Source: Candidatus Limnocylindria bacterium
GTDB lineage: Bacteria; Chloroflexota; Limnocylindria; QHBO01
DNA: 41,750 nt
Assembly (NCBI GenBank): GCA_036560105.1
Contig: DATBRU010000137.1
Span: 1 to 41,750 of the forward strand
Direction of reading: 5' to 3'
In this document: in pieces, positions 23,061 through 37,629 of the stretch
How positions within the stretch are numbered: the stretch's first letter is position 1
Layout: every line of letters begins with the position of its first letter
The notes under the pieces: generated by a model
Seen by the model: the letters and a program-made list of their open reading frames with translations, nothing else
Databases searched by the model: none
Told to the model about the DNA's origin: nothing
Program-made: the position numbers and the translations under genes

Positions 23061-23205
23061 GCTCGACACGCGGGGCGAAGGGTGGGCCACCGCACTATGC
23101 GTGCCTCGTTCGGAGGCGTCAAATGGTCGTGGGGTGGCGTAACAATGTGCGTAACGCTCGGTGAGACCCGGGCCGACAAGCTTCGATCAGCGGGAGGCAC
23201 GACCT

Positions 23206-23565
23206 GTGCATCGATCATCTCGGATGGCGCTCACCGGCGTCCTCCTCATCCTCATCGTCACCCTTGCCGGCTGCGGCGGCGGAGCCGATCCATCCGCGGG
23301 AGGCGACACGGGCGAAACGGTCTCGCTCTCGGGCAGCCAGTTCTCCCCGTCGAGCCTGACGATTCCGGCGGGCACGACCGTCACGTTCACGAACACCTCG
23401 GGCCACACCGTGACGGAGGGAACCGACGGGCAGCCCGTCGACGACCCGATCATTGACGAGCAAGGCGGCGAGGACATTGTCTTCACGTTCGACGAGCCCG
23501 GGACCTACGACCTCACGTGTCGGATCCACTCGTCCATGCACATGACGATCACCGTCGAAGGCTGA
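23206..23565 (+). CDS. Cupredoxin (amicyanin/plastocyanin-like blue copper) lipoprotein
   Basis: GGGAGG (23192-23197) lies 8 nt before GTG 23206. It has lipobox LAGC and candidate type-1 Cu ligands: His in TSGHTV and the C-x2-H-x2-M loop CRIHSSM. It is divergent from ccmA. Confidence 0.8.
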   Translation: MHRSSRMALTGVLLILIVTLAGCGGGADPSAGGDTGETVSLSGSQFSPSSLTIPAGTTVTFTNTSGHTVTEGTDGQPVDDPIIDEQGGEDIVFTFDEPGTYDLTCRIHSSMHMTITVEG

Positions 23566-23620: not shown

Positions 23621-23998
23621 ATGGACGCCAGCCCAGCACCCACCGTGCCCACCTCGACCCGCTCCCGCGCCGCCCGACGCGAGGCCGCGCAGCACGCCGA
23701 ATGCGCCGCCACGGCAGCACTCAACGTACTCGGGCAGAAGTGGGTGCTTCGCATCATTCGCGCCCTGGGGGAGCGAACCCAGCGGTTCTGCGAGCTCCAG
23801 GACGCCCTCGGCGGCGCGAACTCGGCGACCCTCTCGCAGCGGCTCAAGCTGCTCGAGGACGAGGACCTCATCGAGCGACGCGAGATCAGCGCGATGCCGC
23901 CGTGGGTCGAGTACTCGCTCACGGCGAAGGGCAGCGAGCTGCGTGGCGCGATCGTCTCCATCGATCGCTGGGCGGAGCGCTGGGCCGCGCGCCAGTGA
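23621..23998 (+). CDS. HxlR-family transcriptional regulator
   Basis: 125 aa starting at ATG 23621. HxlR hallmarks are present: LNVLGQKWVLRIIRAL, RFCELQ, LSQRLKLLEDEDLIER, and YSLT.KG. Confidence 0.8.
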   Translation: MDASPAPTVPTSTRSRAARREAAQHAECAATAALNVLGQKWVLRIIRALGERTQRFCELQDALGGANSATLSQRLKLLEDEDLIERREISAMPPWVEYSLTAKGSELRGAIVSIDRWAERWAARQ

Positions 23999-24483
23999 GC
24001 CACCCCGTCGCGGAGGAGCGTCCCGCGCTCCACGGGGACGCACTCAACGGGCTTCGGGCGGCGATCGCCGAGGCCTCCGATCCGGAGCCCGCGACGCAGC
24101 GGGTGGTCGAGCTCCTCCGCGCCCGATTCGGACATTACGACTGGGTCGGCATCTACTGGGTCGATGGCCCGGATCTCGTCCTCGGACCCTGGAGCGGGCC
24201 TCAGGCGACCGACCACACGCGCATCCCGATCGGGACGGGCATCTGCGGCGCCGCAGCCGCCTCCGGCCAGACCGAGATCGTCCCCGACGTCGAGGCGGAT
24301 CCCCGCTACCAGGCCTGCTTCGCCACAACGCGGAGCGAGATCGTCGTCCCGATCTTCGATGGTGGCACCGTCATCGGAGAGATCGACATCGACGGGTCCG
24401 ACCTCGACGCGTTCGACGAGACCGATGCTCGCTTCCTCGAGGAGGTCGCCGCGCTGGTCGCCCCGCTGCGGTCCCGGGCGTAA
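23995..24483 (+). CDS. GAF-domain protein, free methionine-(R)-sulfoxide reductase (YebR/MsrC) family
   Basis: The GTG start overlaps the HxlR stop (GTGA). Segments GTGICGAAA, YQACFATTRSEIVVPI and VIGEIDIDGS align with the E. coli YebR segments GKGVCGTAA, IACDAASNSEIVLPL and IIGVLDIDS, including the catalytic cysteines. Confidence 0.8.
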   Translation: MSHPVAEERPALHGDALNGLRAAIAEASDPEPATQRVVELLRARFGHYDWVGIYWVDGPDLVLGPWSGPQATDHTRIPIGTGICGAAAASGQTEIVPDVEADPRYQACFATTRSEIVVPIFDGGTVIGEIDIDGSDLDAFDETDARFLEEVAALVAPLRSRA

Positions 24484-24507
24484 CCGCGGTCGTACCGCAT
24501 CGGTGAG

Positions 24508-25023
24508 ATGGACACCGGTCCGGGACCCTTCGAACACGTCTACGACGAGCACGTCGTCGGCATCTATCGGTTCGTCTATGCCCGGGTCGGCAACCACCCC
24601 GACGCTGAGGACCTGACCGCGCAGGTCTTCGTGCGCGCGGTCGAGCAGCTCGACACGTCGCGCGACCCGCGCCAGGTCGCCGCGTGGCTGTACCGGGTGG
24701 CCCACAACGCCACCGCCGACTACTGGCGCGCGTTCTACCGCCTCCCCGTCGTCGGCGTCGACCACGTCGCACCCGGCTGGGAGCCCGCCGACGAGTCCGG
24801 GCGGCCGCAGCCAGAGCCCGACGAGCGCGCGGGCATCCGGGTCCAGGCGCTCCTGCGACGTCTCCCCGACCACTACCGCCGGGTGCTCGAGCTGCGCTTC
24901 CTCGAACGCAAGACCGTGGCCGAGACGGCCGTCGAGCTCGGCATCAGCAATGGCAATGCCCGCGTCCTCCAGTACCGCGCGCTGCGCCGAGCGGCATTGC
25001 TCGGAGAACCCACCGATGGCTGA
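24508..25023 (+). CDS. ECF-type RNA polymerase sigma-70 factor
   Basis: 171 aa with region 2 (AEDLTAQVFVRA, WLYRVAHN) and region 4 (YRRVLELRFLERKTVAETAVELGISNGNARVLQYRALRR). Confidence 0.88.
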   Translation: MDTGPGPFEHVYDEHVVGIYRFVYARVGNHPDAEDLTAQVFVRAVEQLDTSRDPRQVAAWLYRVAHNATADYWRAFYRLPVVGVDHVAPGWEPADESGRPQPEPDERAGIRVQALLRRLPDHYRRVLELRFLERKTVAETAVELGISNGNARVLQYRALRRAALLGEPTDG

Positions 25024-25819
25024 TGAAGAACGCCGCCTGAACGACGCCGCCGAGCGATTCGACGGCTACCTGGAGGCGCTCCTCGGCGACGGACGGCCGT
25101 CACCGGAGAGCGTCGAGGACCGCGACGAGGCGGAGATGGCGCGCACGGCCGCCGAGCTGGCCGCGGGCGTCCGTCCGGCCGACGGCTCGGCCCCCGACCC
25201 GGCCTTCGTCGAGCAGCTTCGGCTGCGCATGCGCGAGGCCGATGCGGGCATCGAGACGATACGGACTCCTCCGCCGGTGCGCGATCAGCCCCAGCCGGAA
25301 GGGGTCGGACGCTGGCGCCTCTCGCGGCGCCAGGTGCTCCAGGCGGGCGTGGGCGCCGCCGCGGGGCTCGCCGCTGGGCTGGTCGGGGTGGCGCTGCGCA
25401 CCGGGGCCGATCGCACCGCGGGAACCTGGGACGATGAGCCGCTCGTCGCCGGCGAGGGGTTCTGGACCGAGGTCGCTCGGGTCGACGAGGTGCCCGAGGG
25501 AACGGCGCTGCGCTTCAGCACCGCGGCGTTCGACGGCTTCGTCGTCAATGACGGGGGCACGATCCGCGCCCTCTCATCGGTCTGCACGCACATGGGCTGC
25601 ACGCTCTCCTACCGACCCGACTGGCAGGATCTGCGCTGCCCGTGCCACGATGCCTCGTTCAATCTCGCCGGGCAGCTGGTCAACGGGCGGCGGGCATGGC
25701 GAGCCGAGGGCGCCTACCGCGGCGATGCTCGTGCATATCCGCTCGAGCTTCCAGATCTCGTCCGACCCGAGGTCAAGGTCGAGGGCGACGCGATCAAGGT
25801 CTGGACCGCGCAGGCCTGA
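25016..25819 (+). CDS. Membrane protein with a cytoplasmic N-terminal region, an internal twin-arginine/TM segment and a C-terminal Rieske [2Fe-2S] domain; putative anti-sigma factor
   Basis: 267 aa starting at an ATG that overlaps the sigma gene by 8 nt. The N-terminal ~110 aa are acidic and helical with no zf-HC2 motif. SRRQVLQAGVGAAAGLAAGLVGVAL is Tat-like plus a TM helix. Rieske boxes CTHMGC and CPCHDA are present. Confidence 0.75.
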   Translation: MADEERRLNDAAERFDGYLEALLGDGRPSPESVEDRDEAEMARTAAELAAGVRPADGSAPDPAFVEQLRLRMREADAGIETIRTPPPVRDQPQPEGVGRWRLSRRQVLQAGVGAAAGLAAGLVGVALRTGADRTAGTWDDEPLVAGEGFWTEVARVDEVPEGTALRFSTAAFDGFVVNDGGTIRALSSVCTHMGCTLSYRPDWQDLRCPCHDASFNLAGQLVNGRRAWRAEGAYRGDARAYPLELPDLVRPEVKVEGDAIKVWTAQA

Positions 25820-25822
25820 GCG

Positions 25823-26053
25823 TCAGAGTCGCACGACCGAGAGCAGGTAGCCGACGGCATACGGGATAGCCAGGATGACGAGGATGATCAGCAGGACCAG
25901 GCCGGCATAGAGGAACAGGCTCAGGTCTGGCGGGCCGGATCGCGCTGGCGGCGGCGTCAGCCGTTTGGGCAGGTGGGAGGGCCGGTGCGGCCGCTGATGC
26001 TCGTACCGGTGCGGCGTCGACAGGTCCGGCAGCTTGATCGGGGAATCGGGCAC
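25823..26053 (-). CDS. Hypothetical 76-aa tail-anchored membrane protein
   Basis: The GTG start lies 5 nt after the dehydrogenase stop. GC3 is high throughout. It has a Pro/His/Arg-rich N-terminal half and a single C-terminal TM helix (LSLFLYAGLVLLIILVILAIPYAVGYLL). I recognise no homology. Confidence 0.4.
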   Translation of the reverse strand: MPDSPIKLPDLSTPHRYEHQRPHRPSHLPKRLTPPPARSGPPDLSLFLYAGLVLLIILVILAIPYAVGYLLSVVRL

Positions 26054-28927: not shown

Positions 28928-29353
28928 ATGACGATGTCCGAGACTCCTCGAGAATCGATCTCGCTCACCTCGCCCGCTCCGACGAGCGAGCTGCTCGTAT
29001 CGGTCACCGAGGCGGCTGCGAAGAAGGTGATCGAGCTGCGCGCACGCGAGGGCAAGGCAGATGCGAACCTCCGCCTCTTCGTGAAGGCCGGCGGCTGCTC
29101 CGGCTTCAGCTACGGCCTCGCCTTCGACGACAAGCTCAATGACGGCGACAAGCTCGAGGATCATGCCGGCGTTCCGGTCGTCATCGATCAGTTCAGCCAG
29201 CAGCATGTTGCCGGTGCCGAGATCGACTACGTCGACTCGCTGATGGGCTCCGGCTTCGCGATCAACAACCCGAACGCGGTGAGCAGCTGCGCCTGCGGCT
29301 CCTCGTTCAACACCGATGGCTCACCCGCCAAGGCAGGCGGCTGCGCCCACTGA
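28928..29353 (+). CDS. HesB/IscA-family iron-sulfur cluster insertion protein
   Basis: Motifs LRLFVKAGGCSGFSYGLAFD and the C-terminal SCACGSSF (three conserved Cys) are present. It also has ~25 extra N-terminal and 14 extra C-terminal residues. Confidence 0.88.
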   Translation: MTMSETPRESISLTSPAPTSELLVSVTEAAAKKVIELRAREGKADANLRLFVKAGGCSGFSYGLAFDDKLNDGDKLEDHAGVPVVIDQFSQQHVAGAEIDYVDSLMGSGFAINNPNAVSSCACGSSFNTDGSPAKAGGCAH

Positions 29354-32779: not shown

Positions 32780-33592
32780 TCAGTCCCCGGTCTGGGTCAG
32801 CAGGAAGGTGATGAGGGCCTGCAGCGCGCTGTCGGAGAGCGAGTCTTCCGGATGCGGCGGCATGCCCGTGGCGTTCCCGTCGTTGTAGTTGGCGGACGAG
32901 TCCCGGATCCACAGCTCCAGGAAGTTGCGGGGATCCTCCGCGTAGTCCGCCTCCATCTCGGCGCGACCGGACGGCTCGTTGAACCCGCTCAGGTCGACGA
33001 GCCCGGAGCCGATGGTCGAGATGTTGGGTCCGGCCGTCGAGCCGGTCAGGTCCGCGCCGTGACATCCGGCGCAGCCCGCGGAGGCGAAGACCTCGGCGCC
33101 GGCTTCGGGCGTGTCCGGCACCTCCTCGGGCAGATCGGTCGCTGCGTCCTCGGCCCAACCGGTGACCAGGGCGACGACCGCGTCGATCTGCTGCACGTTC
33201 AGCGGGCCGCCGACCTCGGCGCTCCAGGCCGGCATCGGCGAGTTCACGTTGCCGGAGACGACCACGCCGCCGTAGCTGACGGCGAGGTGGACGTAGTTGG
33301 GATTGACCGCCAGCTTGTTGGCGAGCGATGCCGTGTGCAGGCTCGGCGCACGGCGTCCGTCGGGATCGTTCGGGATCGCGCCGCCGGTTCCATCGGCGCC
33401 GTGGCATCGCGCGCAGCCGGCGGCAGCCGGCTCGGTCTCGGAGTCGCTGAAGACGACCTCGCCGTACTCGAGCAGCTCCTCCTCCTGGGCGACCGCGATC
33501 GCACCGCGTCGTGCCGGATCGGTGAACCAGAAGAGCATCGTGAACGCGGCGAGCACGGTGACGAGCAGGACGCCGAGCGCCTTGATGCGCAT
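32780..33592 (-). CDS. Membrane-anchored di-haem cytochrome c
   Basis: 270 aa with an N-terminal anchor. It has two CxxCH motifs (CARCH, CAGCH), each followed by a distal Met-containing segment (SPMPAW, GMPPH). It lies 3 nt after the Rieske gene. Confidence 0.88.
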   Translation of the reverse strand: MRIKALGVLLVTVLAAFTMLFWFTDPARRGAIAVAQEEELLEYGEVVFSDSETEPAAAGCARCHGADGTGGAIPNDPDGRRAPSLHTASLANKLAVNPNYVHLAVSYGGVVVSGNVNSPMPAWSAEVGGPLNVQQIDAVVALVTGWAEDAATDLPEEVPDTPEAGAEVFASAGCAGCHGADLTGSTAGPNISTIGSGLVDLSGFNEPSGRAEMEADYAEDPRNFLELWIRDSSANYNDGNATGMPPHPEDSLSDSALQALITFLLTQTGD

Positions 33593-33595
33593 CGC

Positions 33596-34252
33596 TCAGC
33601 CGGTGCAGTGGGGCATGTCGGTCGGCCCGCGTTCGTCGAACCCGATCGTCCCGGGGGGTGGACCGCTGACGACCTCGCTCGTATCGACGATGTAGGTCCC
33701 GTCCTCGACGATGACATTGAAGCGATCCATGCCGCGCGGCGCGGGGCCGTCGCGCTTCTCGCCGAGCACCGTGTACTTCGATCCATGGCACAGGCATTCG
33801 AACCACTGGCTCTCGTTGCACAGCTGCGGCACCTGGCAGCCGAGGTGCGGGCACTTGCGGTACAGCGCCATGACGGAACGTTCCGCCGGTGGCAGATCCG
33901 GTGAGACGTCGGCCCCGGGATCGGGCACCGGGTTGGCGACCGTCCCGTCGCCGTCGACGCGCTCCTTCGCGGCGGGCACGTTCACGAAGAACAGGTTCGC
34001 CTGGTTGTAGACGTAGGGCAGCCCGTTCGCCCAGTCCGGCCAGACCGCGTTGATCTCGTCAGCCGTTCCCAGCGTGATCTGGGCACCAAGCCCCTCGGTC
34101 AGGTTCGGCCACAGGAAGGCGATGGTGCCGCCGAGGAACTCGAGCGTCAGCAGACCGACTCCGACACCGAGCATCCGGCGCATGAAGCCGCGCCGGGTGA
34201 TCTCACCGGTCGGCGGGCCATGGACGGGGCCGTAGGAGGCGTGCTGCGTCAT
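33596..34252 (-). CDS. Rieske [2Fe-2S] subunit of the Rieske/cytochrome b complex
   Basis: 218 aa starting at ATG 34252, with an ATGA overlap with the upstream gene. It has a Tat motif and anchor (TRRGFMRRMLGVGVGLLTL) and Rieske boxes CPHLGC and CLCHGS. Confidence 0.9.
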   Translation of the reverse strand: MTQHASYGPVHGPPTGEITRRGFMRRMLGVGVGLLTLEFLGGTIAFLWPNLTEGLGAQITLGTADEINAVWPDWANGLPYVYNQANLFFVNVPAAKERVDGDGTVANPVPDPGADVSPDLPPAERSVMALYRKCPHLGCQVPQLCNESQWFECLCHGSKYTVLGEKRDGPAPRGMDRFNVIVEDGTYIVDTSEVVSGPPPGTIGFDERGPTDMPHCTG

Positions 34253-34866
34253 AGCGTGAAGAACAGGCCGTCCCAGGGCCAGACCCAGTTCCAGCCCGGT
34301 CCGCGGAAGAAGGAGCCGATGAAGGTCACGATCAACCCGCCGATCATGATGCAGAGGAAGAAGACCCACATCATCTTCCGGTCGCGCGCGGCCTTGTACG
34401 GCGAGCGGTCGATGTACGGGATGATGATGAGCCCGCCAAGGTAGACCGGGATGACGAGCACGCCGGCCACGGTCGGGTTGAAGTAGCTGAGCAGCTCCTG
34501 GAGGCCGAGGAAGTACCACGGCGCCTTGGCCACGTGCGGGGTGACCGCCGGGTTGGCCATCTCCTCAAGCGGGGCGGTGATGAACACCGAGGCCACCACC
34601 AGCAGGCCGGTGATGAGCATCCCCATCAGGAACTCGGGCCGCAGCAGGTGGGGCCAGGTCAGGACGGTCTCATCGGGGCGCTTGTCAACACGGACCATCG
34701 ACTCCTGCTTCACGTAGGCGAGGAGGCGGAAGCGCTCCGTGCCCGGCACGCCGGGCGGCCCGGGCAGCTTGGGTCCCGTGCCCGGGGCCAAGATCGGCGC
34801 ACGCTCGGGGGCCTGCGTCGGCACGTTCTTGTCGGCCGTGGCGTTGGGTCGCTTCTCGATCGTCAT
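34249..34866 (-). CDS. Cytochrome b C-terminal half (subunit IV / PetD-like)
   Basis: 205 aa with three TM helices. The Qo-loop motif region is VAKAPWYFLGLQELL, which is the PEWY-box position. It follows the b6-like gene after 13 nt. Confidence 0.88.
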   Translation of the reverse strand: MTIEKRPNATADKNVPTQAPERAPILAPGTGPKLPGPPGVPGTERFRLLAYVKQESMVRVDKRPDETVLTWPHLLRPEFLMGMLITGLLVVASVFITAPLEEMANPAVTPHVAKAPWYFLGLQELLSYFNPTVAGVLVIPVYLGGLIIIPYIDRSPYKAARDRKMMWVFFLCIMIGGLIVTFIGSFFRGPGWNWVWPWDGLFFTL

Positions 34867-34879
34867 CGGTCCATTCCCA

Positions 34880-35623
34880 TCACACCGGCCCGCTGATCCC
34901 GCCGTCCTTCCTGATGCGCCAGAAGTGGACGATCATCAGGATGGCCGCAACGAGCGGGAAGAAGATGACGTGCGCGACATAGAAGCGCAGGAGCGTGCCC
35001 TGCCCGACGGAGATTCCGCCGAGGATGAAGAAGCTCGACTCGCTGGCCAGCAGCGGCGCGTACGTCGCCATCTGGGTGCCGACCGTGATGGCCCAGAACG
35101 CGATCTGGTCCCACGGCAGCAGGTAGCCGGTGAAGCTGAGCGCCAGCGTGAAGAAGAGGAGCAGGACGCCGATGACCCAGTTGAACTCACGCGGCGGCTT
35201 GTAGGCGCCGTGGTAGAAGACGCGGATCATGTGCAGGAAGACGGTCAGCACCATCAGATGCGCCGCCCATCGATGCATGTTGCGCACGAAGGCGCCGAAG
35301 GCAACCGACGCTTCGATCGACTGGATGTCCTGGTAGGCCTGGCTGATGGACGGGACGTAGAAGAACATCAGGTACAGGCCGGTCACGGTCAGGTTCAGGA
35401 ACAGGAAAAAGCTGATCCCGCCCAGGCAGAACGTGTACGTGTAGCGCACCGCGTGACGCTTGACCCGAACCGGGTGCAGGTGGAGGAACACGTTGTTCAT
35501 CACCGCCAGCGCGCGAGTGCGGCTCGTCGTCGGGTACGGCTGGCGGAACAGGCTGCGCCAGGCCGACGATTCCTTCACCCAGCGGGTGATCGGGTTGCCA
35601 CCCTGGCCGGGAATGTCGCTCAT
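34880..35623 (-). CDS. Cytochrome b6-type subunit (N-terminal half of cytochrome b, PetB/QcrB-like)
   Basis: 247 aa with four helices. The haem-ligand pairs are H-x13-H ([15 protein letters not shown]) and H-x14-H ([16 protein letters not shown]). A b6-like FCLGG segment is present. The ATG overlaps the upstream stop (ATGA). Confidence 0.92.
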
Positions 35624-37629
35624 CGGTCCGCCGTCATGCCAGCCTGCTGGCCGACCTGTCCGAGCACATTGTCCTTGTAGCTCTCCAACAGAACCTTCCC
35701 GTCAGGCGTGAACCGCTCGAGCTCGAGGCGGTCCATGGTGATGCAGTTCGTGGGACAGCGCTCGACGCACAGGTTGCACCGGATGCACCGTTCCTCGTCG
35801 ATGATCATGGCGATCCCGCGCGGCCACGATTGGAAGAATCCCTGCTCCGGGTCGTCGCCGCCGACCTGCGCCTTGTCGATCATGTAGATCACGCCCTCGG
35901 GGCACACGTCGGCGCAGAGCCCGCACAGGATACAGCGGGGCCCGTCGATGTTGATGTTGTGGTTGCACTGGAGGCAGCGCGTTCCCTCGGCGATGGCACC
36001 ACGCGTGTCGTAGCCGACCTCGACGAGCGAGCGGAAGTCCCGGCGCAGCTCCGGCGGGGCCATCGGGATCTCCTGGCGCGGGGTCGCCTCGTAGAAGCGT
36101 GGCATGTCGTGCTCGAGGCTCTGGGTGATGACCGCGCGGTTGATGACCGGCAGTTCCTCGAGCTCGGTGCCTCGCAGCCCGGCCAGCCAGCGGTCGACCG
36201 AACGGGCCGCCCGTCGCCCCAGCCCGGCCGCCTCGATGATCGTCGCCGGCCCCGTGACGAAGTCGCCGACGGCGAAGATGCCGTCCGAGGTGGTGCCGAA
36301 CGTATCGGCGTTGATCGAGACATTGCCGCGGTTGAAGTCGAACGTCAGCGAGTTCAGCGGACGGCCGTCCTTGTCCTTCGGCGTGGTCCCGTTGAGCGGC
36401 TGCGTGCGCCAGGAGCTGAGCGACCCGCCCTCGACCACCGAGCGCGTATCGGTGACCCCGACGTGGCGGTTCAGCTTGGCCCCGAACTCTCCGAGGACGT
36501 TGTTGTCCGACGCCTGGCTCGTGCAGGGGATGACCATGTCGCACGGAACGGTGAACTCGCTGCCCGGGATGGGCTCGGCACTGCGCCGCCCGCTGGCATC
36601 CGGCGGGCCGAGCTGGGTGCGCTGGAAGACGATCCCGTTGACGCGCCCGTCGGCGCCGGCGGTCACCTCGACCGGGGACGCGAAGAATTCGAACCCGACG
36701 CCCTCGAAGCGGGTCTCGTGCTGCTCTTCCTCGTCGACCACCATCTCGTCAGGGCCGCGGCGGTAGAAGATCGTCGAGGTCGTGGCGCCGAGCCGCAGAG
36801 CGGTGCGCGATGAGTCCATGGCCGTGTACCCGCCACCGATGACGACGACGTGCTTCCCGACCCATTGCGGCTGCCCGAGGTTCGCGCGCTTGAGGAAGTC
36901 GACGCCGTAGATCACGCCCTCGAGCTCCTCGCCGGGCACGTTCATGGCCACCGGGTACATGCAGCCCGTGGCAACGACGACCGCGTCGTGACGCTGGCGC
37001 AGCTGCTCGAGGGTGATGTCCCGGCCGATCTCGACGTTGTAATGGAACTGGACGCCGTGCTTGGCGACCCAGTTGACATCGAGCTCGATGACGTCGCGCG
37101 GGAGGCGGAAGGCCGGAACGCCGATGAGGGTCGTCCCGCCGCCGCTGGGCAGGGCCTCGTACACGTGGACGTCGTGGCCCCAGCCGCCGAGCTCCTTGGC
37201 GGCCGCCAGGCCCGCCGGTCCGGCGCCGATGACCGCCACGCTGCGGCCCGTCGCCGGCTGCACCTCCACCTGGTCGGGCATGTTGTTGCCGTAATGCCAG
37301 TCGACGAGGAATCGCTTCATGGCGCGGATGGCCAGCGGCTTGTCGATGTCGGCCCGGCGGCAGGCCTTCTCGCACGGCGCGGAGCACACGTAGCCGCAGA
37401 TCGCGGCAACGGGGTTCGGGTCGCGAGCGAGGATGTAGCCCTCCTCGAAGCGGCCCTCGGCGGCCAGCATGAGGTAGCCCCGGCAATTCGTGTTGACCGG
37501 GCAGCCTTCCTGGCACTCGATATTGCACTGAAGCCAATCGACGCCGACCTCGGCGGTCTGGAACCTCAGCGGAATCGCCGTATCACTGATCACTGCGTCG
37601 TCGTCGCTCTCCGCGCGGTCTTGACCCAT
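35620..37629 (-). CDS. GltD/NfnB-like NAD(P)H-dependent FAD/Fe-S oxidoreductase fused to a C-terminal 2x[4Fe-4S] ferredoxin domain
   Basis: 669 aa with no TM helix. N-terminal GltD-type Cys clusters are [10 protein letters not shown] and [13 protein letters not shown]. Dinucleotide folds are [14 protein letters not shown] and [12 protein letters not shown], and GDF..GP is also present. The C-terminal region carries [12 protein letters not shown] and [12 protein letters not shown]. Confidence 0.88.

What the first reader, a model, noticed from the sequence alone, without database searches (positions are those of the whole stretch)
24508..25819. ECF sigma factor translationally coupled to a membrane protein with an exported Rieske [2Fe-2S] domain
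Seen: the ECF sigma gene (24508-25023) overlaps by 8 nt the start of a 267-aa protein. That protein has:
- a ~110-aa acidic, helical cytoplasmic N-terminus with no HxxxCxxC zinc motif;
- an internal twin-arginine segment plus a TM helix (SRRQVLQAGVGAAAGLAAGL);
- a complete Rieske fold with CTHMGC and CPCHDA boxes.

Established: ECF sigma factors are normally co-transcribed with their anti-sigma factor, whose extracytoplasmic domain senses the signal. Internal Tat motifs that export a folded Rieske domain are known from actinobacterial QcrA-type proteins.

Inference: this is a candidate anti-sigma factor whose sensor is a periplasm-side Fe-S cluster that could respond to redox state, oxygen, NO or iron. 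I do not recall a Rieske-type anti-sigma factor being characterised. Its neighbours are the ccm operon, a cupredoxin, HxlR and fRMsr, which suggests the regulon may concern envelope redox or cytochrome homeostasis.
Basis: partly seen in the sequence, partly recalled or inferred. Interest (0 to 1): 0.68.

Follow-up and report, generated by a model that had tools for sequence, protein, structure and literature searches.

The report
Candidate Rieske-domain anti-sigma factor
An alternative sigma factor gene overlaps the gene for a membrane protein that has a short cytoplasmic helical domain and an exported iron-sulfur (Rieske) domain; the pair, a blue-copper protein gene and a shared promoter-like motif recur in soil Chloroflexota and in mycobacteria, so this looks like an undescribed switch that may read an iron-sulfur cluster outside the cell, though sigma binding is untested.

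Summary
An ECF sigma gene (24508-25023) overlaps by 8 nt a 267-aa ORF (25016-25819). That ORF has an acidic, Cys/His-free N-terminus with three predicted helices, an internal SRRQVLQ twin-arginine motif plus a hydrophobic segment, and a complete Rieske domain.

- **Conservation.** Relatives occur in 117 species-level genomes, nearly all Candidatus Limnocylindria. Sigma lies immediately upstream in all 79 of the 80 loci that hold upstream DNA, and 68/80 keep the same 8-nt overlap.
- **Second phylum.** Mycobacteriaceae, including an M. abscessus plasmid, carry a collinear sigma / N-domain-RR-TM-Rieske / cupredoxin module.
- **N-domains.** The N-domains of the two phyla are homologous (hhalign 95.7%) but match no Pfam family or PDB sequence.
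- **Shared motif.** A GTAACC-N5-8-C(G/C)TA motif with a weaker downstream GNYGA-like block precedes both the sigma gene and the cupredoxin gene in both phyla.

Best reading: an undescribed membrane anti-sigma factor with an extracytoplasmic [2Fe-2S] sensor that controls an autoregulated sigma whose conserved target is a cupredoxin.

Sigma binding is inferred, not shown. The ccm operon carries no copy of the motif. No paper describing such a system was found.

The parts
23138..23164 (+). Motif copy at the head of the operon: CGTAAC-N6-CGTAAC, then CGGTGA at 23159-23164 (15-nt spacer after the first hexamer). It lies between the divergent ccmA gene and the cupredoxin gene.
   Evidence: This is one of only two matches in the window; 0.05 are expected for the stricter pattern. 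A head motif is present in 52/53 Limnocylindria loci that have an adjacent cupredoxin and absent in 12/13 that lack one. The equivalent site precedes the cupredoxin gene in 6/6 mycobacterial loci.
23206..23565 (+). Cupredoxin gene (type-1 copper, plastocyanin/pseudoazurin-like) with a lipoprotein signal (LAGC). It is the likely conserved target gene. The start is uncertain: GTG 23206 with GGGAGG upstream, while the ORF is open from 23161.
   Evidence: Pfam Cupredoxin_1 and Copper-bind; NCBIfam and PDB matches; 34% identical to the cupredoxin of the M. abscessus plasmid module.
23621..23998 (+). HxlR-family winged-helix regulator. It belongs to the operon in Limnocylindria only.
   Evidence: Pfam HxlR at 5e-23. 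It is weakly similar to the redox regulators RrpA/RrpB. It is absent from the mycobacterial modules.
23980..24483 (+). Stand-alone GAF protein of the free methionine-R-sulfoxide reductase (fRMsr) family. Its TAA stop codon lies inside the first hexamer of the sigma-proximal motif.
   Evidence: Pfam GAF at 6e-17; PDB 3mmh_A methionine-R-sulfoxide reductase at 2.8e-30; sequence.
24479..24506 (+). Sigma-proximal motif copy: CGTAAC-N6-CGTACC, then CGGTGA at 24501-24506 (16-nt spacer). It ends 1 nt before the sigma ATG.
   Evidence: This is the second of the two matches in the window. A motif at one mismatch or fewer precedes sigma in 74 distinct Limnocylindria upstream sequences (75 sites at two mismatches or fewer). 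In the 21 loci inspected the ATG always lies 25-29 nt from the motif start.
24508..25023 (+). [quoted passage not shown]
   Evidence: Pfam and NCBIfam. The nearest solved relative is BldN, 6dxo_A, at 8.9e-19. It is 42% identical to the sigma of the mycobacterial module, E 3e-39.
25016..25324 (+). Cytoplasmic N-terminal domain of the 267-aa protein (residues 1-103), the proposed sigma-binding domain. It is acidic, with three predicted helices (about 3-23, 36-50 and 62-83). Conserved core: RFxxYLxALLxxxRPxP...DEAEMARxAAEL...PDPAFVEQLRxRM.
   Evidence: AlphaFold models; conservation; homology to the mycobacterial N-domain, hhalign 95.7%, E 9e-9; no Pfam, NCBIfam or PDB match.
25322..25396 (+). 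Internal twin-arginine motif (S103-R-R-Q-V-L-Q) plus a Gly/Ala-rich hydrophobic segment (residues 106-127). Read as an uncleaved Tat signal-anchor.
   Evidence: Borderline Tat HMM scores. The motif is conserved in Limnocylindria, and mycobacteria carry NRRQVI/TRRQVI. No conserved AxA cleavage site is seen in the alignment.
25433..25819 (+). Extracytoplasmic Rieske [2Fe-2S] domain (residues 140-267) and stop codon. Ligand boxes are at 25583-25600 (CTHMGC) and 25637-25648 (CPCH); C195 and C210 are in the disulfide positions.
   Evidence: Pfam Rieske at 3e-14; pLDDT about 95; Foldseek best matches are the Chlorobaculum Rieske domain 8hn2_A, PetC3 5cxm_A and arsenite oxidase AioB; the boxes are invariant in the family.

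Best explanation
The 267-aa protein is most likely the cognate membrane anti-sigma factor of the ECF sigma factor encoded just upstream.

**Shown**
- The two genes overlap and stay together in two phyla.
- The protein has a conserved cytoplasmic domain of about 75-100 aa with three predicted helices, then a twin-arginine motif and a hydrophobic segment, then a complete Rieske domain.
- A sigma-family-specific motif precedes both the sigma gene and a cupredoxin gene in both phyla.

**Inferred**
- The N-domain sequesters sigma at the membrane, much as RsbN holds BldN.
- The Rieske domain is folded and loaded with its [2Fe-2S] cluster in the cytoplasm. The Tat pathway then moves it across the membrane and leaves the RR segment as an uncleaved anchor.
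- The state of the exposed cluster decides whether the anti-sigma factor stays intact. The most likely variable is cluster integrity or occupancy, with redox state as the alternative.
- When the cluster is lost or never inserted (through copper, oxidants, NO or iron shortage), the domain unfolds or fails export, the protein is degraded and sigma is freed.
- Free sigma transcribes from the GTAACC-type promoters. These drive its own operon and the gene for an exported lipoprotein cupredoxin, which sits on the same side of the membrane as the sensor.
For: **Gene arrangement**
- The 8-nt overlap ATGnnTGA is seen in the window and in 68/80 species-level Limnocylindria loci.
- Sigma is directly upstream in every one of the 79 loci that hold upstream DNA.
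- The pair stays together where the cupredoxin, HxlR or the divergent ccmA gene is missing from its usual place (L057, L061, L064, L081, L083).

**Second phylum**
- The M. abscessus plasmid NC_021278.1 and five Mycobacteriaceae loci (chromosomal assemblies and metagenome contigs) carry sigma, a 4-nt overlap, an N-domain-RR-TM-Rieske protein and a cupredoxin.
- Identities to the window proteins are 42%, 31% (collinear over residues 18-223) and 34%.
- The N-domains of the two phyla are homologous (hhalign 95.7%, E 9e-9).

**Domain features**
- Three helices are predicted in about 85 cytoplasmic residues, followed by one hydrophobic segment.
- RsbN has the same layout: three helices in a 117-aa cytoplasmic region, one TM helix and an outside domain (PMC6101532).
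- BldN, RsbN's partner, is the sigma's nearest solved relative and nearest curated family, though below the family cut-off.
- Helix faces carry invariant hydrophobic residues: Y18, L22, L23, F64, L68.

**Co-variation**
- With background distances regressed out, sigma and N-domain distances correlate at 0.58.
- The N-domain correlates with its own Rieske domain at only 0.32.
- In the bootstrap, the sigma/N-domain value exceeded that in 100% of resamples, and exceeded sigma/Rieske domain in 92%.

**Motif**
- There are two exact copies in 41.7 kb.
- At least 74 Limnocylindria sigma genes have one upstream.
- The head copy tracks the cupredoxin gene, 52/53 against 1/13.
- All 12 mycobacterial sites, six upstream of sigma and six upstream of the cupredoxin, carry it.
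- Sigma is the only DNA-binding protein common to the modules of both phyla.

**A separate respiratory Rieske protein**
- The window also holds a full cytochrome b / Rieske / cytochrome c operon with its own Rieske subunit, which carries CLCHGSKY.
Against:
- The N-domain resembles no known anti-sigma domain by sequence.
- Foldseek found no structural match either. The model has no compact fold, with pTM 0.30.
- Synteny within each phylum extends well beyond the pair. Within-phylum conservation is therefore weak evidence on its own.
- The co-variation margin over the controls is modest (88-92% of bootstraps).
- Rieske proteins and cupredoxins are classical electron-transfer partners, so a purely redox role for the protein is conceivable.
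- No protease gene that could act on the protein was seen nearby.
- Tat HMM scores are just below their cut-offs, and a Tat motif after about 100 residues is unusual.
- In Limnocylindria the sigma-proximal motif copy sits so close to the ATG that a canonical -35/-10 reading puts the transcription start inside the sigma ORF.
Confidence: 0.6

Rival explanations
1. The protein is a membrane-anchored electron-transfer partner of the cupredoxin, a Rieske-to-blue-copper redox pair. It would be an output co-expressed with the sigma factor, not its inhibitor. Sigma would be controlled some other way, and the N-domain would have another cytoplasmic role.
For: - All cluster ligands and both disulfide cysteines are invariant, as expected for a working redox centre.
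- The nearest folds include AioB, whose NCBIfam model is named for an azurin acceptor, and the non-b6f Rieske protein PetC3.
- The cupredoxin co-occurs in both phyla.
- The N-domain matches no known anti-sigma domain.
Against: - A conserved cytoplasmic domain of 75-100 aa is unnecessary for a periplasmic electron carrier.
- The overlap with the sigma stop codon is kept in both phyla.
- The sigma/Rieske pair persists in 13 Limnocylindria loci that have no adjacent cupredoxin.
- The N-domain co-varies with sigma more than with its own Rieske domain.
- No other anti-sigma candidate is conserved next to sigma in both phyla.
- The two roles are not exclusive. Electron exchange with the cupredoxin could itself be the signal.
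Confidence: 0.2
2. The protein is an anti-sigma factor, but the signal is the redox state of the intact cluster rather than cluster loss and proteolysis. The cluster would equilibrate with the quinol, cytochrome c or cupredoxin pool, and reduction or oxidation would change conformation or oligomerisation reversibly.
For: - The positions two and four residues after the ligand histidine are Ala/Thr and Phe (CPCH-G/D-A-S-F; CPCH-S-T-S-F). In the respiratory paralogue they are Ser and Tyr (CLCH-G-S-K-Y).
- From published bc1 mutagenesis, cited from memory, this predicts a lower midpoint potential than the respiratory Rieske protein. Such a potential could sit within the working range of the carrier pool.
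- The output is itself a redox carrier.
Against: - Rieske domains change little in structure on reduction (general knowledge).
- Passing such a change through a single Gly/Ala-rich helix is hard to picture.
- Characterised single-pass ECF anti-sigma factors are mostly inactivated by proteolysis (general knowledge).
- No tool here can separate this model from the cluster-integrity model.
Confidence: 0.25
3. The N-terminal domain is a maturation handle, not a regulator. It would be a docking site for an Fe-S delivery or Tat proofreading chaperone. Adjacency to sigma would reflect co-expression only.
For: - Tat substrates with cofactors often bind dedicated chaperones through their N-terminal regions (general knowledge).
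- An A-type Fe-S carrier gene lies 3 kb away and is syntenic in Limnocylindria.
Against: - Known chaperone-binding regions are the signal peptides themselves, not separate 100-aa helical domains.
- The Fe-S carrier gene is absent from the mycobacterial modules.
- This reading explains neither the translational overlap nor the co-variation with sigma.
Confidence: 0.07

Closest known systems
RsbN / sigma-BldN of Streptomyces venezuelae (class III anti-sigma domain; PDB 6DXO; PMC6101532)
   Same: - It is a single-pass membrane protein with a cytoplasmic N-terminal region of about 100-117 aa containing three helices, and a separate extracytoplasmic domain.
- Its gene lies next to that of an ECF sigma.
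- BldN is the nearest solved relative and the nearest curated family of the window's sigma.
   Different: - There is no detectable sequence similarity to RsbN; PDB profile searches found no anti-sigma chain at E up to 10.
- The sigma scores 95 bits against a BldN-family cut-off of 206, and at 171 aa leaves no room for BldN's N-terminal pro-sequence (described in PMC7826278).
- The outside domain here is a Rieske Fe-S domain preceded by a twin-arginine motif.
Class I anti-sigma domains, including zinc-binding ZAS proteins (RsrA, RslA, ChrR, RseA)
   Same: The anti-sigma factor is encoded directly downstream of its ECF sigma. It has an N-terminal helical sigma-binding domain, then one TM helix, then a variable sensor domain. 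Some of these proteins are redox-sensitive.
   Different: - There is no HxxxCxxC, and no Cys or His at all in residues 1-103.
- Pfam zf-HC2 and the other anti-sigma models give nothing at E up to 10.
- Three helices are predicted rather than four.
- The redox-active cofactor would be outside the cytoplasm and would be an Fe-S cluster, not a Zn-thiolate site.
Fe-S-associated regulators of sigma factors: S. coelicolor RsmA [2Fe-2S] (from memory), M. tuberculosis RshA reported with an Fe-S cluster (PMC3427169), Wbl proteins (PMC7363131)
   Same: An iron-sulfur cluster is tied to the control of a sigma factor.
   Different: Those proteins are cytoplasmic and soluble, with Cys-ligated clusters and different folds. 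Here the cluster would be a His2Cys2 Rieske centre on the outer face of the membrane.
Small Tat-exported Rieske proteins: arsenite oxidase AioB, cyanobacterial PetC3, the Chlorobaculum Rieske soluble domain
   Same: These are the best sequence and fold matches to the C-terminal domain. They share the CxHxGC / CxCH boxes with disulfide cysteines and an RR signal-anchor before the domain.
   Different: - All NCBIfam equivalog scores are far below their cut-offs, for example 32.5 against 95.65 for AioB and 34.8 against 250 for PetC.
- No AioA or cytochrome b gene is adjacent.
- The RR motif here follows a conserved 100-aa cytoplasmic domain.
ECF40 promoters: sigma-ShbA CGTAAC-N16-CGATGA and SigD GTAAC-N17-18-CGAT (PMC12019637)
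   Same: The -35-like element GTAAC(C) is the same. The window reads CGTAAC-N16-CGGTGA upstream of sigma and CGTAAC-N15-CGGTGA at the operon head. Some Limnocylindria loci read CGATGA exactly.
   Different: - The sigma scores only 52.8 bits on the ShbA model, against a cut-off of 209.
- An extra conserved block, CGTA in Limnocylindria and CTAT in mycobacteria, sits in the spacer and is more conserved than the -10-like block.

Membership tests
ECF (group IV) sigma-70 factors | [quoted passage not shown] | tested here: met
   Sigma70_r2 and Sigma70_r4_2 are found. TIGR02937 scores 70.5 bits against a cut-off of 42.9, and the protein is 171 aa.
BldN family (TIGR02952; ECF121) | Score above the equivalog cut-off, and an N-terminal pro-sequence | tested here: not met
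   The score is 95.1 bits against a cut-off of 206.45. At 171 aa the protein has no extension. The BldN pro-sequence is described in PMC7826278.
ECF40 (ShbA/SigD) | Score above the ShbA subfamily cut-off | tested here: not met
   NF007230 scores 52.8 bits against a cut-off of 209. Only the promoter-like motif resembles ECF40.
Rieske [2Fe-2S] domain (PF00355) | CxH...CxxH ligand boxes, the Rieske fold and a Pfam score above the gathering threshold | tested here: met
   The score is 53.1 bits against 20.3. The CTHMGC and CPCH boxes are invariant. The model has pLDDT about 95, and 192 PDB matches reach E 0.001 or better; all of the top 50 listed are Rieske-type proteins. Cluster binding itself was not measured.
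Rieske subunit of cytochrome bc1/b6f (PetC/QcrA) | Equivalog-level score and a gene next to cytochrome b | tested here: not met
   Scores are 34.8 against 250, 32.4 against 154 and 31.4 against 275. The window's cytochrome b operon (32780-35623) has its own Rieske gene, only 28% identical over 46 residues.
Arsenite oxidase small subunit AioB | Equivalog score and an adjacent large subunit AioA | tested here: not met
   TIGR02694 scores 32.5 against a cut-off of 95.65. None of the neighbouring genes scanned is a molybdopterin oxidoreductase, and none is called in the syntenic loci.
ECF anti-sigma factors (functional class) | Encoded next to and co-transcribed with the cognate ECF sigma | tested here: met
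   An 8-nt overlap is kept in 68/80 Limnocylindria loci, and a 4-nt overlap in 6/6 mycobacterial loci.
ECF anti-sigma factors (functional class) | Physically binds and inhibits the sigma factor | not testable with these tools
Only indirect co-variation is available.
Class I anti-sigma domain / ZAS | Four-helix ASD detectable by the zf-HC2 or ASDI models; HxxxCxxC in ZAS proteins | tested here: not met
   There is no Pfam hit at E up to 10 other than TAT_signal. Residues 1-103 contain no Cys or His. Three helices are predicted.
Class III anti-sigma domain (RsbN-like) | Three-helix cytoplasmic domain, single TM helix, and binding between sigma-2 and sigma-4 of a BldN-type sigma | tested here: inconclusive
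   The predicted helix count, domain size and topology fit. No sequence or fold match was found. The binding mode could not be tested.
Tat (twin-arginine) substrates | S/T-R-R-x-F-L-K motif followed by a moderately hydrophobic segment, at the N-terminus of a cofactor-containing exported domain | tested here: inconclusive
   SRRQVLQ plus a Gly/Ala-rich segment is present and conserved. TIGR01409 scores 16.4 against 16.7 and PF10518 scores 17.2 against 22.7. The motif is internal, at residue 103, not N-terminal.

The most novel reading that the evidence does not exclude
An exported Rieske [2Fe-2S] cluster acts as a sacrificial or redox 'fuse' on the outer face of the membrane. Its loss, non-insertion or redox change would free an ECF sigma factor from a previously unrecognised three-helix anti-sigma domain that precedes an internal Tat signal-anchor. 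This would be a Tat-inserted Fe-S anti-sigma factor, tied to a copper protein as its output and possibly also as its signal. In addition, the sigma may use a promoter whose most conserved elements (GTAACC and CGTA/CTAT) lie only 5-8 bp apart. In Limnocylindria that geometry would give a leaderless sigma mRNA.
Probability: 0.3. Interest if true: 0.85.

Novelty: new variant of a known kind. Interest (0 to 1): 0.7.

Why it matters
ECF sigma/anti-sigma pairs are among the most widespread bacterial signalling systems, yet the signal is unknown for most groups. This candidate would add a sensor type I found no report of in the papers searched: an Fe-S cluster outside the cytoplasm. It would also add a new anti-sigma domain family, and it would link Tat export and Fe-S assembly to transcriptional control.

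The module has a simple, conserved read-out: a cupredoxin gene behind a recognisable motif. It occurs in named Mycobacterium/Mycolicibacterium species and on an M. abscessus plasmid, not only in uncultured Limnocylindria. Genetics, reporter assays and spectroscopy are therefore feasible straight away.

Public records call these proteins 'Rieske (2Fe-2S) protein', 'cytochrome b6-f complex iron-sulfur subunit' or 'nitrite reductase/ring-hydroxylating ferredoxin subunit'. The regulatory reading is therefore absent from current annotation.

Tried and rejected
- **Single-sequence search with the N-domain.** phmmer against 1.84 billion representatives found 29 hits, nearly all fragments or frameshifted copies of the same family.
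- **Profile search with the N-domain.** The profile search also found only Limnocylindria fragments. I first concluded that the domain was confined to that class. The plasmid tblastn hit and hhalign overturned this.
- **Known-family matches for the N-domain.** PDB profile searches with A2 and the cross-phylum A6, and Pfam at E up to 10, gave nothing meaningful.
- **Foldseek on the N-domain model.** It gave two non-significant hits. The model has no compact fold, so this negative result says little.
- **ECF group assignment.** No ECF Hub models were available. The reclassification paper has no held supplements, and its main text does not mention Rieske, cupredoxin or Tat. Huang et al. 2015 is not held.
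- **Motif as a palindromic or direct-repeat operator, for example for HxlR.** Rejected as the main reading. The motif also accompanies sigma in loci and in a phylum that lack an adjacent HxlR gene.
- **Motif as a sigma-54-type -24/-12 promoter.** Only the spacing resembles one; the sequence does not.
- **ccm or bc-complex genes as regulon members.** There are no further motif copies in the window.
- **L092 as a cupredoxin-less mycobacterial locus.** Rejected, because the 118-aa ORF there is a truncated cupredoxin N-terminus.
Full report
**Observation**

- The sigma ORF runs 24508-25023. The next ORF starts at ATG 25016, inside the last codons of sigma, and ends at 25819 (267 aa; 8-nt overlap; GGAGAA 8 nt upstream).
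- Sigma carries Sigma70_r2 and r4_2 domains and passes the ECF superfamily model.
- The 267-aa protein has a Pfam Rieske domain (E 3e-14) with CTHMGC and CPCHDA boxes.
- Its first 103 residues are acidic (pI 4.5) and contain no Cys or His.
- S103-R-R-Q-V-L-Q is followed by a Gly/Ala-rich hydrophobic stretch. It scores just under the Tat-signal thresholds.
- The neighbours are as stated:
  - a divergent ccm operon;
  - a lipoprotein cupredoxin;
  - an HxlR regulator;
  - an fRMsr-type GAF protein.

**Structure**

AlphaFold models the Rieske domain with pLDDT about 95. The N-terminus comes out as three helices (about 3-23, 36-50, 62-83) without a compact fold.
- The Rieske domain is closest to small Rieske domains:
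  - the Chlorobaculum Rieske soluble domain;
  - PetC3, a Synechocystis plasma-membrane Rieske protein;
  - arsenite oxidase AioB.
- It reaches no equivalog cut-off.
- The window also holds a complete cytochrome b / Rieske / cytochrome c operon at 32780-35623. Its Rieske subunit has CPHLGC/CLCHGSKY and is only 28% identical over 46 residues to the sigma-linked protein. The sigma-linked protein is therefore an extra paralogue, not the respiratory subunit.

**Conservation in the home lineage**

- The full-length protein has hundreds of relatives, the listed ones at least 70% identical.
- A scan of one genome per species found 117 genomes with a relative, nearly all Candidatus Limnocylindria or unclassified Chloroflexota.
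- Of the 80 loci fetched, 79 hold DNA upstream of the Rieske gene, and all 79 have sigma immediately upstream.
- 68 of the 80 keep the identical ATGnnTGA overlap.
- The wider neighbourhood is also syntenic, so this is weak evidence alone. Still, the pair stays together where the cupredoxin, HxlR or the divergent ccm operon is missing from its usual place (L057, L061, L064, L081, L083).

**The N-domain first looked like an orphan**

- phmmer against 1.84 billion representatives returned 29 hits, nearly all fragments or frameshifted copies of the same family.
- A profile search returned only more such fragments.
- Pfam, NCBIfam, PDB sequence searches and Foldseek found nothing.

**A second phylum**

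A tblastn search against plasmids hit M. abscessus subsp. bolletii plasmid NC_021278.1.
- The annotated genes there are an RNA polymerase sigma factor, a 'Rieske (2Fe-2S) protein' that overlaps it by 4 nt, a cupredoxin, a metallophosphoesterase and a small membrane protein.
- Identities to the window proteins:
  - sigma, 42% (E 3e-39);
  - the Rieske protein, 31% over residues 18-223, collinear through the N-domain, RR motif, hydrophobic segment and Rieske boxes;
  - the cupredoxin, 34%.
- hhalign of the two N-domain profiles gives 95.7% probability, E 9e-9.
- The mycobacterial family is large (1667 hits) and includes named species:
  - M. aubagnense;
  - M. hodleri;
  - M. kansasii 824;
  - Mycolicibacterium sp. 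050158.
- In this family the boxes CTHQGC and CPCH(S/T)TSF and the motif N/TRRQVI are conserved.
- Five further loci, from genome assemblies and metagenome contigs, show the same order: sigma, Rieske protein, cupredoxin. In four of them a Tat-signal metallophosphoesterase and a small membrane protein follow. In the fifth, L092, the cupredoxin gene is truncated and both are missing.
- The plasmid copy sits in an unrelated context, so the module moves as a unit.

**Shared cis-motif**

In the window, CGTAAC-N6-CGTA occurs exactly twice: at 23138, upstream of the cupredoxin gene, and at 24479, ending just before the sigma ATG.
- At one mismatch or fewer it precedes sigma in 74 distinct Limnocylindria upstream sequences. 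At two mismatches or fewer there are 75 sites.
- The operon-head copy is present in 52/53 loci with an adjacent cupredoxin gene and in 1/13 without one (Fisher p = 3e-11; the loci are phylogenetically related, so this overstates independence).
- All 12 mycobacterial sites read TGTAACCC-N6-(C/G)TAT, and most are followed by a GNYG(A/T)G-like block. Six lie 57-80 nt before the sigma start and six lie directly after the Rieske stop codon, before the cupredoxin gene.
- Sigma is the only DNA-binding protein common to the modules of both phyla. The motif is therefore most simply its own promoter: autoregulation plus the cupredoxin gene as the conserved target.
- The -35-like GTAAC(C) and the window's CGTAAC-N16/15-CGGTGA resemble ECF40 promoters (CGTAAC-N16-CGATGA; PMC12019637).
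- No copy is oriented toward ccm or lies near the bc operon.

**An unresolved point about the motif**

- The spacer block (CGTA in Limnocylindria, CTAT in mycobacteria) is more conserved than the -10-like block.
- In the 21 Limnocylindria loci inspected, the sigma ATG lies 25-29 nt from the start of the motif, and in those checked no alternative in-frame start is available.
- A canonical -35/N17/-10 reading therefore places the transcription start inside the sigma ORF. That would give a transcript able to encode only the anti-sigma factor.
- The alternative is to read CGTA as the -10 element. That gives a leaderless sigma mRNA, but it leaves GTAACC only 5-6 bp upstream, which does not fit the known geometry of sigma-70-family holoenzymes.
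- Mapping the transcription starts is needed to settle this.

**Why an anti-sigma factor is the best reading**

- The layout is a conserved helical cytoplasmic domain of about 75-100 aa, one hydrophobic segment and an outside domain. That matches single-pass ECF anti-sigma factors.
- It matches RsbN in particular: three helices in 117 cytoplasmic residues (PMC6101532). RsbN's partner BldN is the nearest solved relative and nearest curated family of this sigma, below the family cut-off.
- Translational overlap is kept in both phyla.
- Conserved hydrophobic positions lie on the predicted helices.
- With background divergence regressed out, N-domain distances track sigma (r = 0.58) better than they track the protein's own Rieske domain (r = 0.32). 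The bootstrap supports this in 100% of resamples, but the margin over the other controls is only 88-92%.
- None of this shows binding.

**Mechanism (inferred)**

- Rieske domains fold and receive their cluster in the cytoplasm and cross the membrane by Tat. Here the RR segment would remain as an anchor, since no conserved AxA cleavage site is seen.
- The sensor cluster would then share a compartment with the lipoprotein cupredoxin.
- I favour cluster integrity or occupancy as the signal, acting through protein stability, because single-pass anti-sigma factors are usually removed by proteolysis.
- Reversible redox sensing is the main alternative. The residues after the ligand histidine (A/T and F, where the respiratory paralogue has S and Y) suggest a lower potential than the respiratory Rieske protein.
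- Three observations hint at copper or oxidative stress, but they are only hints:
  - Met-rich linkers in the mycobacterial cupredoxins;
  - the Limnocylindria fRMsr gene;
  - the HxlR-type gene.

**Comparison and novelty**

- The system works like an ECF sigma/anti-sigma pair but meets the membership criteria of none of the described anti-sigma domain classes.
- Searches of open-access papers found no Rieske-type or Tat-inserted anti-sigma factor. ECF Hub supplements and Huang et al. 2015 could not be read, so an unpublished or supplementary listing of this gene neighbourhood cannot be excluded.
- Public annotation names the proteins only as Rieske or b6f-type proteins.
- I rate it a new variant of a known kind, with interest 0.7.

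Noticed in passing
window 24479-24510; Limnocylindria loci L006-L085: The sigma-proximal motif copy abuts the sigma start codon: in the 21 loci inspected the ATG is always 25-29 nt from the motif start. The TAA stop of the upstream GAF gene is part of the CGTAAC hexamer. A canonical -35/-10 reading would start transcription inside the sigma ORF. Reading the CGTA block as the -10 element gives a leaderless sigma mRNA but an upstream element only 5-6 bp away.
   Followed up: partly
window 32780-35623 (- strand): This is a complete quinol:cytochrome c oxidoreductase operon: cytochrome b N-terminal part (34880-35623), cytochrome b C-terminal part/subunit IV (34249-34866), a Rieske subunit (about 33596-34267, with CPHLGC/CLCHGSKY and its own RR motif) and a cytochrome c (32780-33592). 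A 669-aa Pyr_redox_2/4Fe-4S protein lies upstream at 35620-37629.
   Followed up: partly
window 23094-23124 (- strand): A sigma-70-like promoter for the divergent ccm operon reads TTGACG-17-CATAGT. Its -35 region (GCGTCAAAT on the + strand) is conserved in most Limnocylindria loci, at variable distance upstream of the cupredoxin-side motif.
   Followed up: partly
L086 (NC_021278.1 105394-111642); L088, L090, L093, L094: The mycobacterial module carries extra conserved members. These are a metallophosphoesterase with its own twin-arginine signal (MNRRQLL), a four-TM protein of about 120 aa, and a cupredoxin with a lipoprotein signal (SRRTLV...AAC in L086) and a Met-rich linker that suggests Cu(I) binding. 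One copy is on a mobilizable M. abscessus plasmid.
   Followed up: partly
L092 4798-5154: In this long metagenomic mycobacterial contig the cupredoxin gene is truncated after its Met-rich linker, and the metallophosphoesterase and small membrane protein genes are missing. The promoter-like motif in front is intact. This may be a real deletion or an assembly indel.
   Followed up: no
window 28928-29353 (+): An A-type Fe-S carrier gene (PF01521, HesB/IscA-like) lies 3 kb downstream and is syntenic across Limnocylindria. It carries no copy of the motif and is absent from the mycobacterial modules.
   Followed up: no
window 25823-26053 (- strand): A conserved 76-aa ORF with a C-terminal hydrophobic helix converges on the Rieske gene and follows a 2-hydroxyacid dehydrogenase gene. 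It has no family match in Pfam or NCBIfam, and it is syntenic in most Limnocylindria loci.
   Followed up: no
P0129 (188 aa, JGI contig of 1874 bp): In this family member the N-domain joins the Rieske domain directly, without the RR motif or hydrophobic segment. It could be a soluble variant or an assembly or gene-calling artefact.
   Followed up: no
L019, L021, L037, L040, L060, L066, L077, L080: These contigs have the typical Limnocylindria gene order and 58-75% identity. Yet they are filed under MAGs named Binatia, Steroidobacteraceae, Angelobacter or Dormiibacterota. Binning errors are the likely cause.
   Followed up: no
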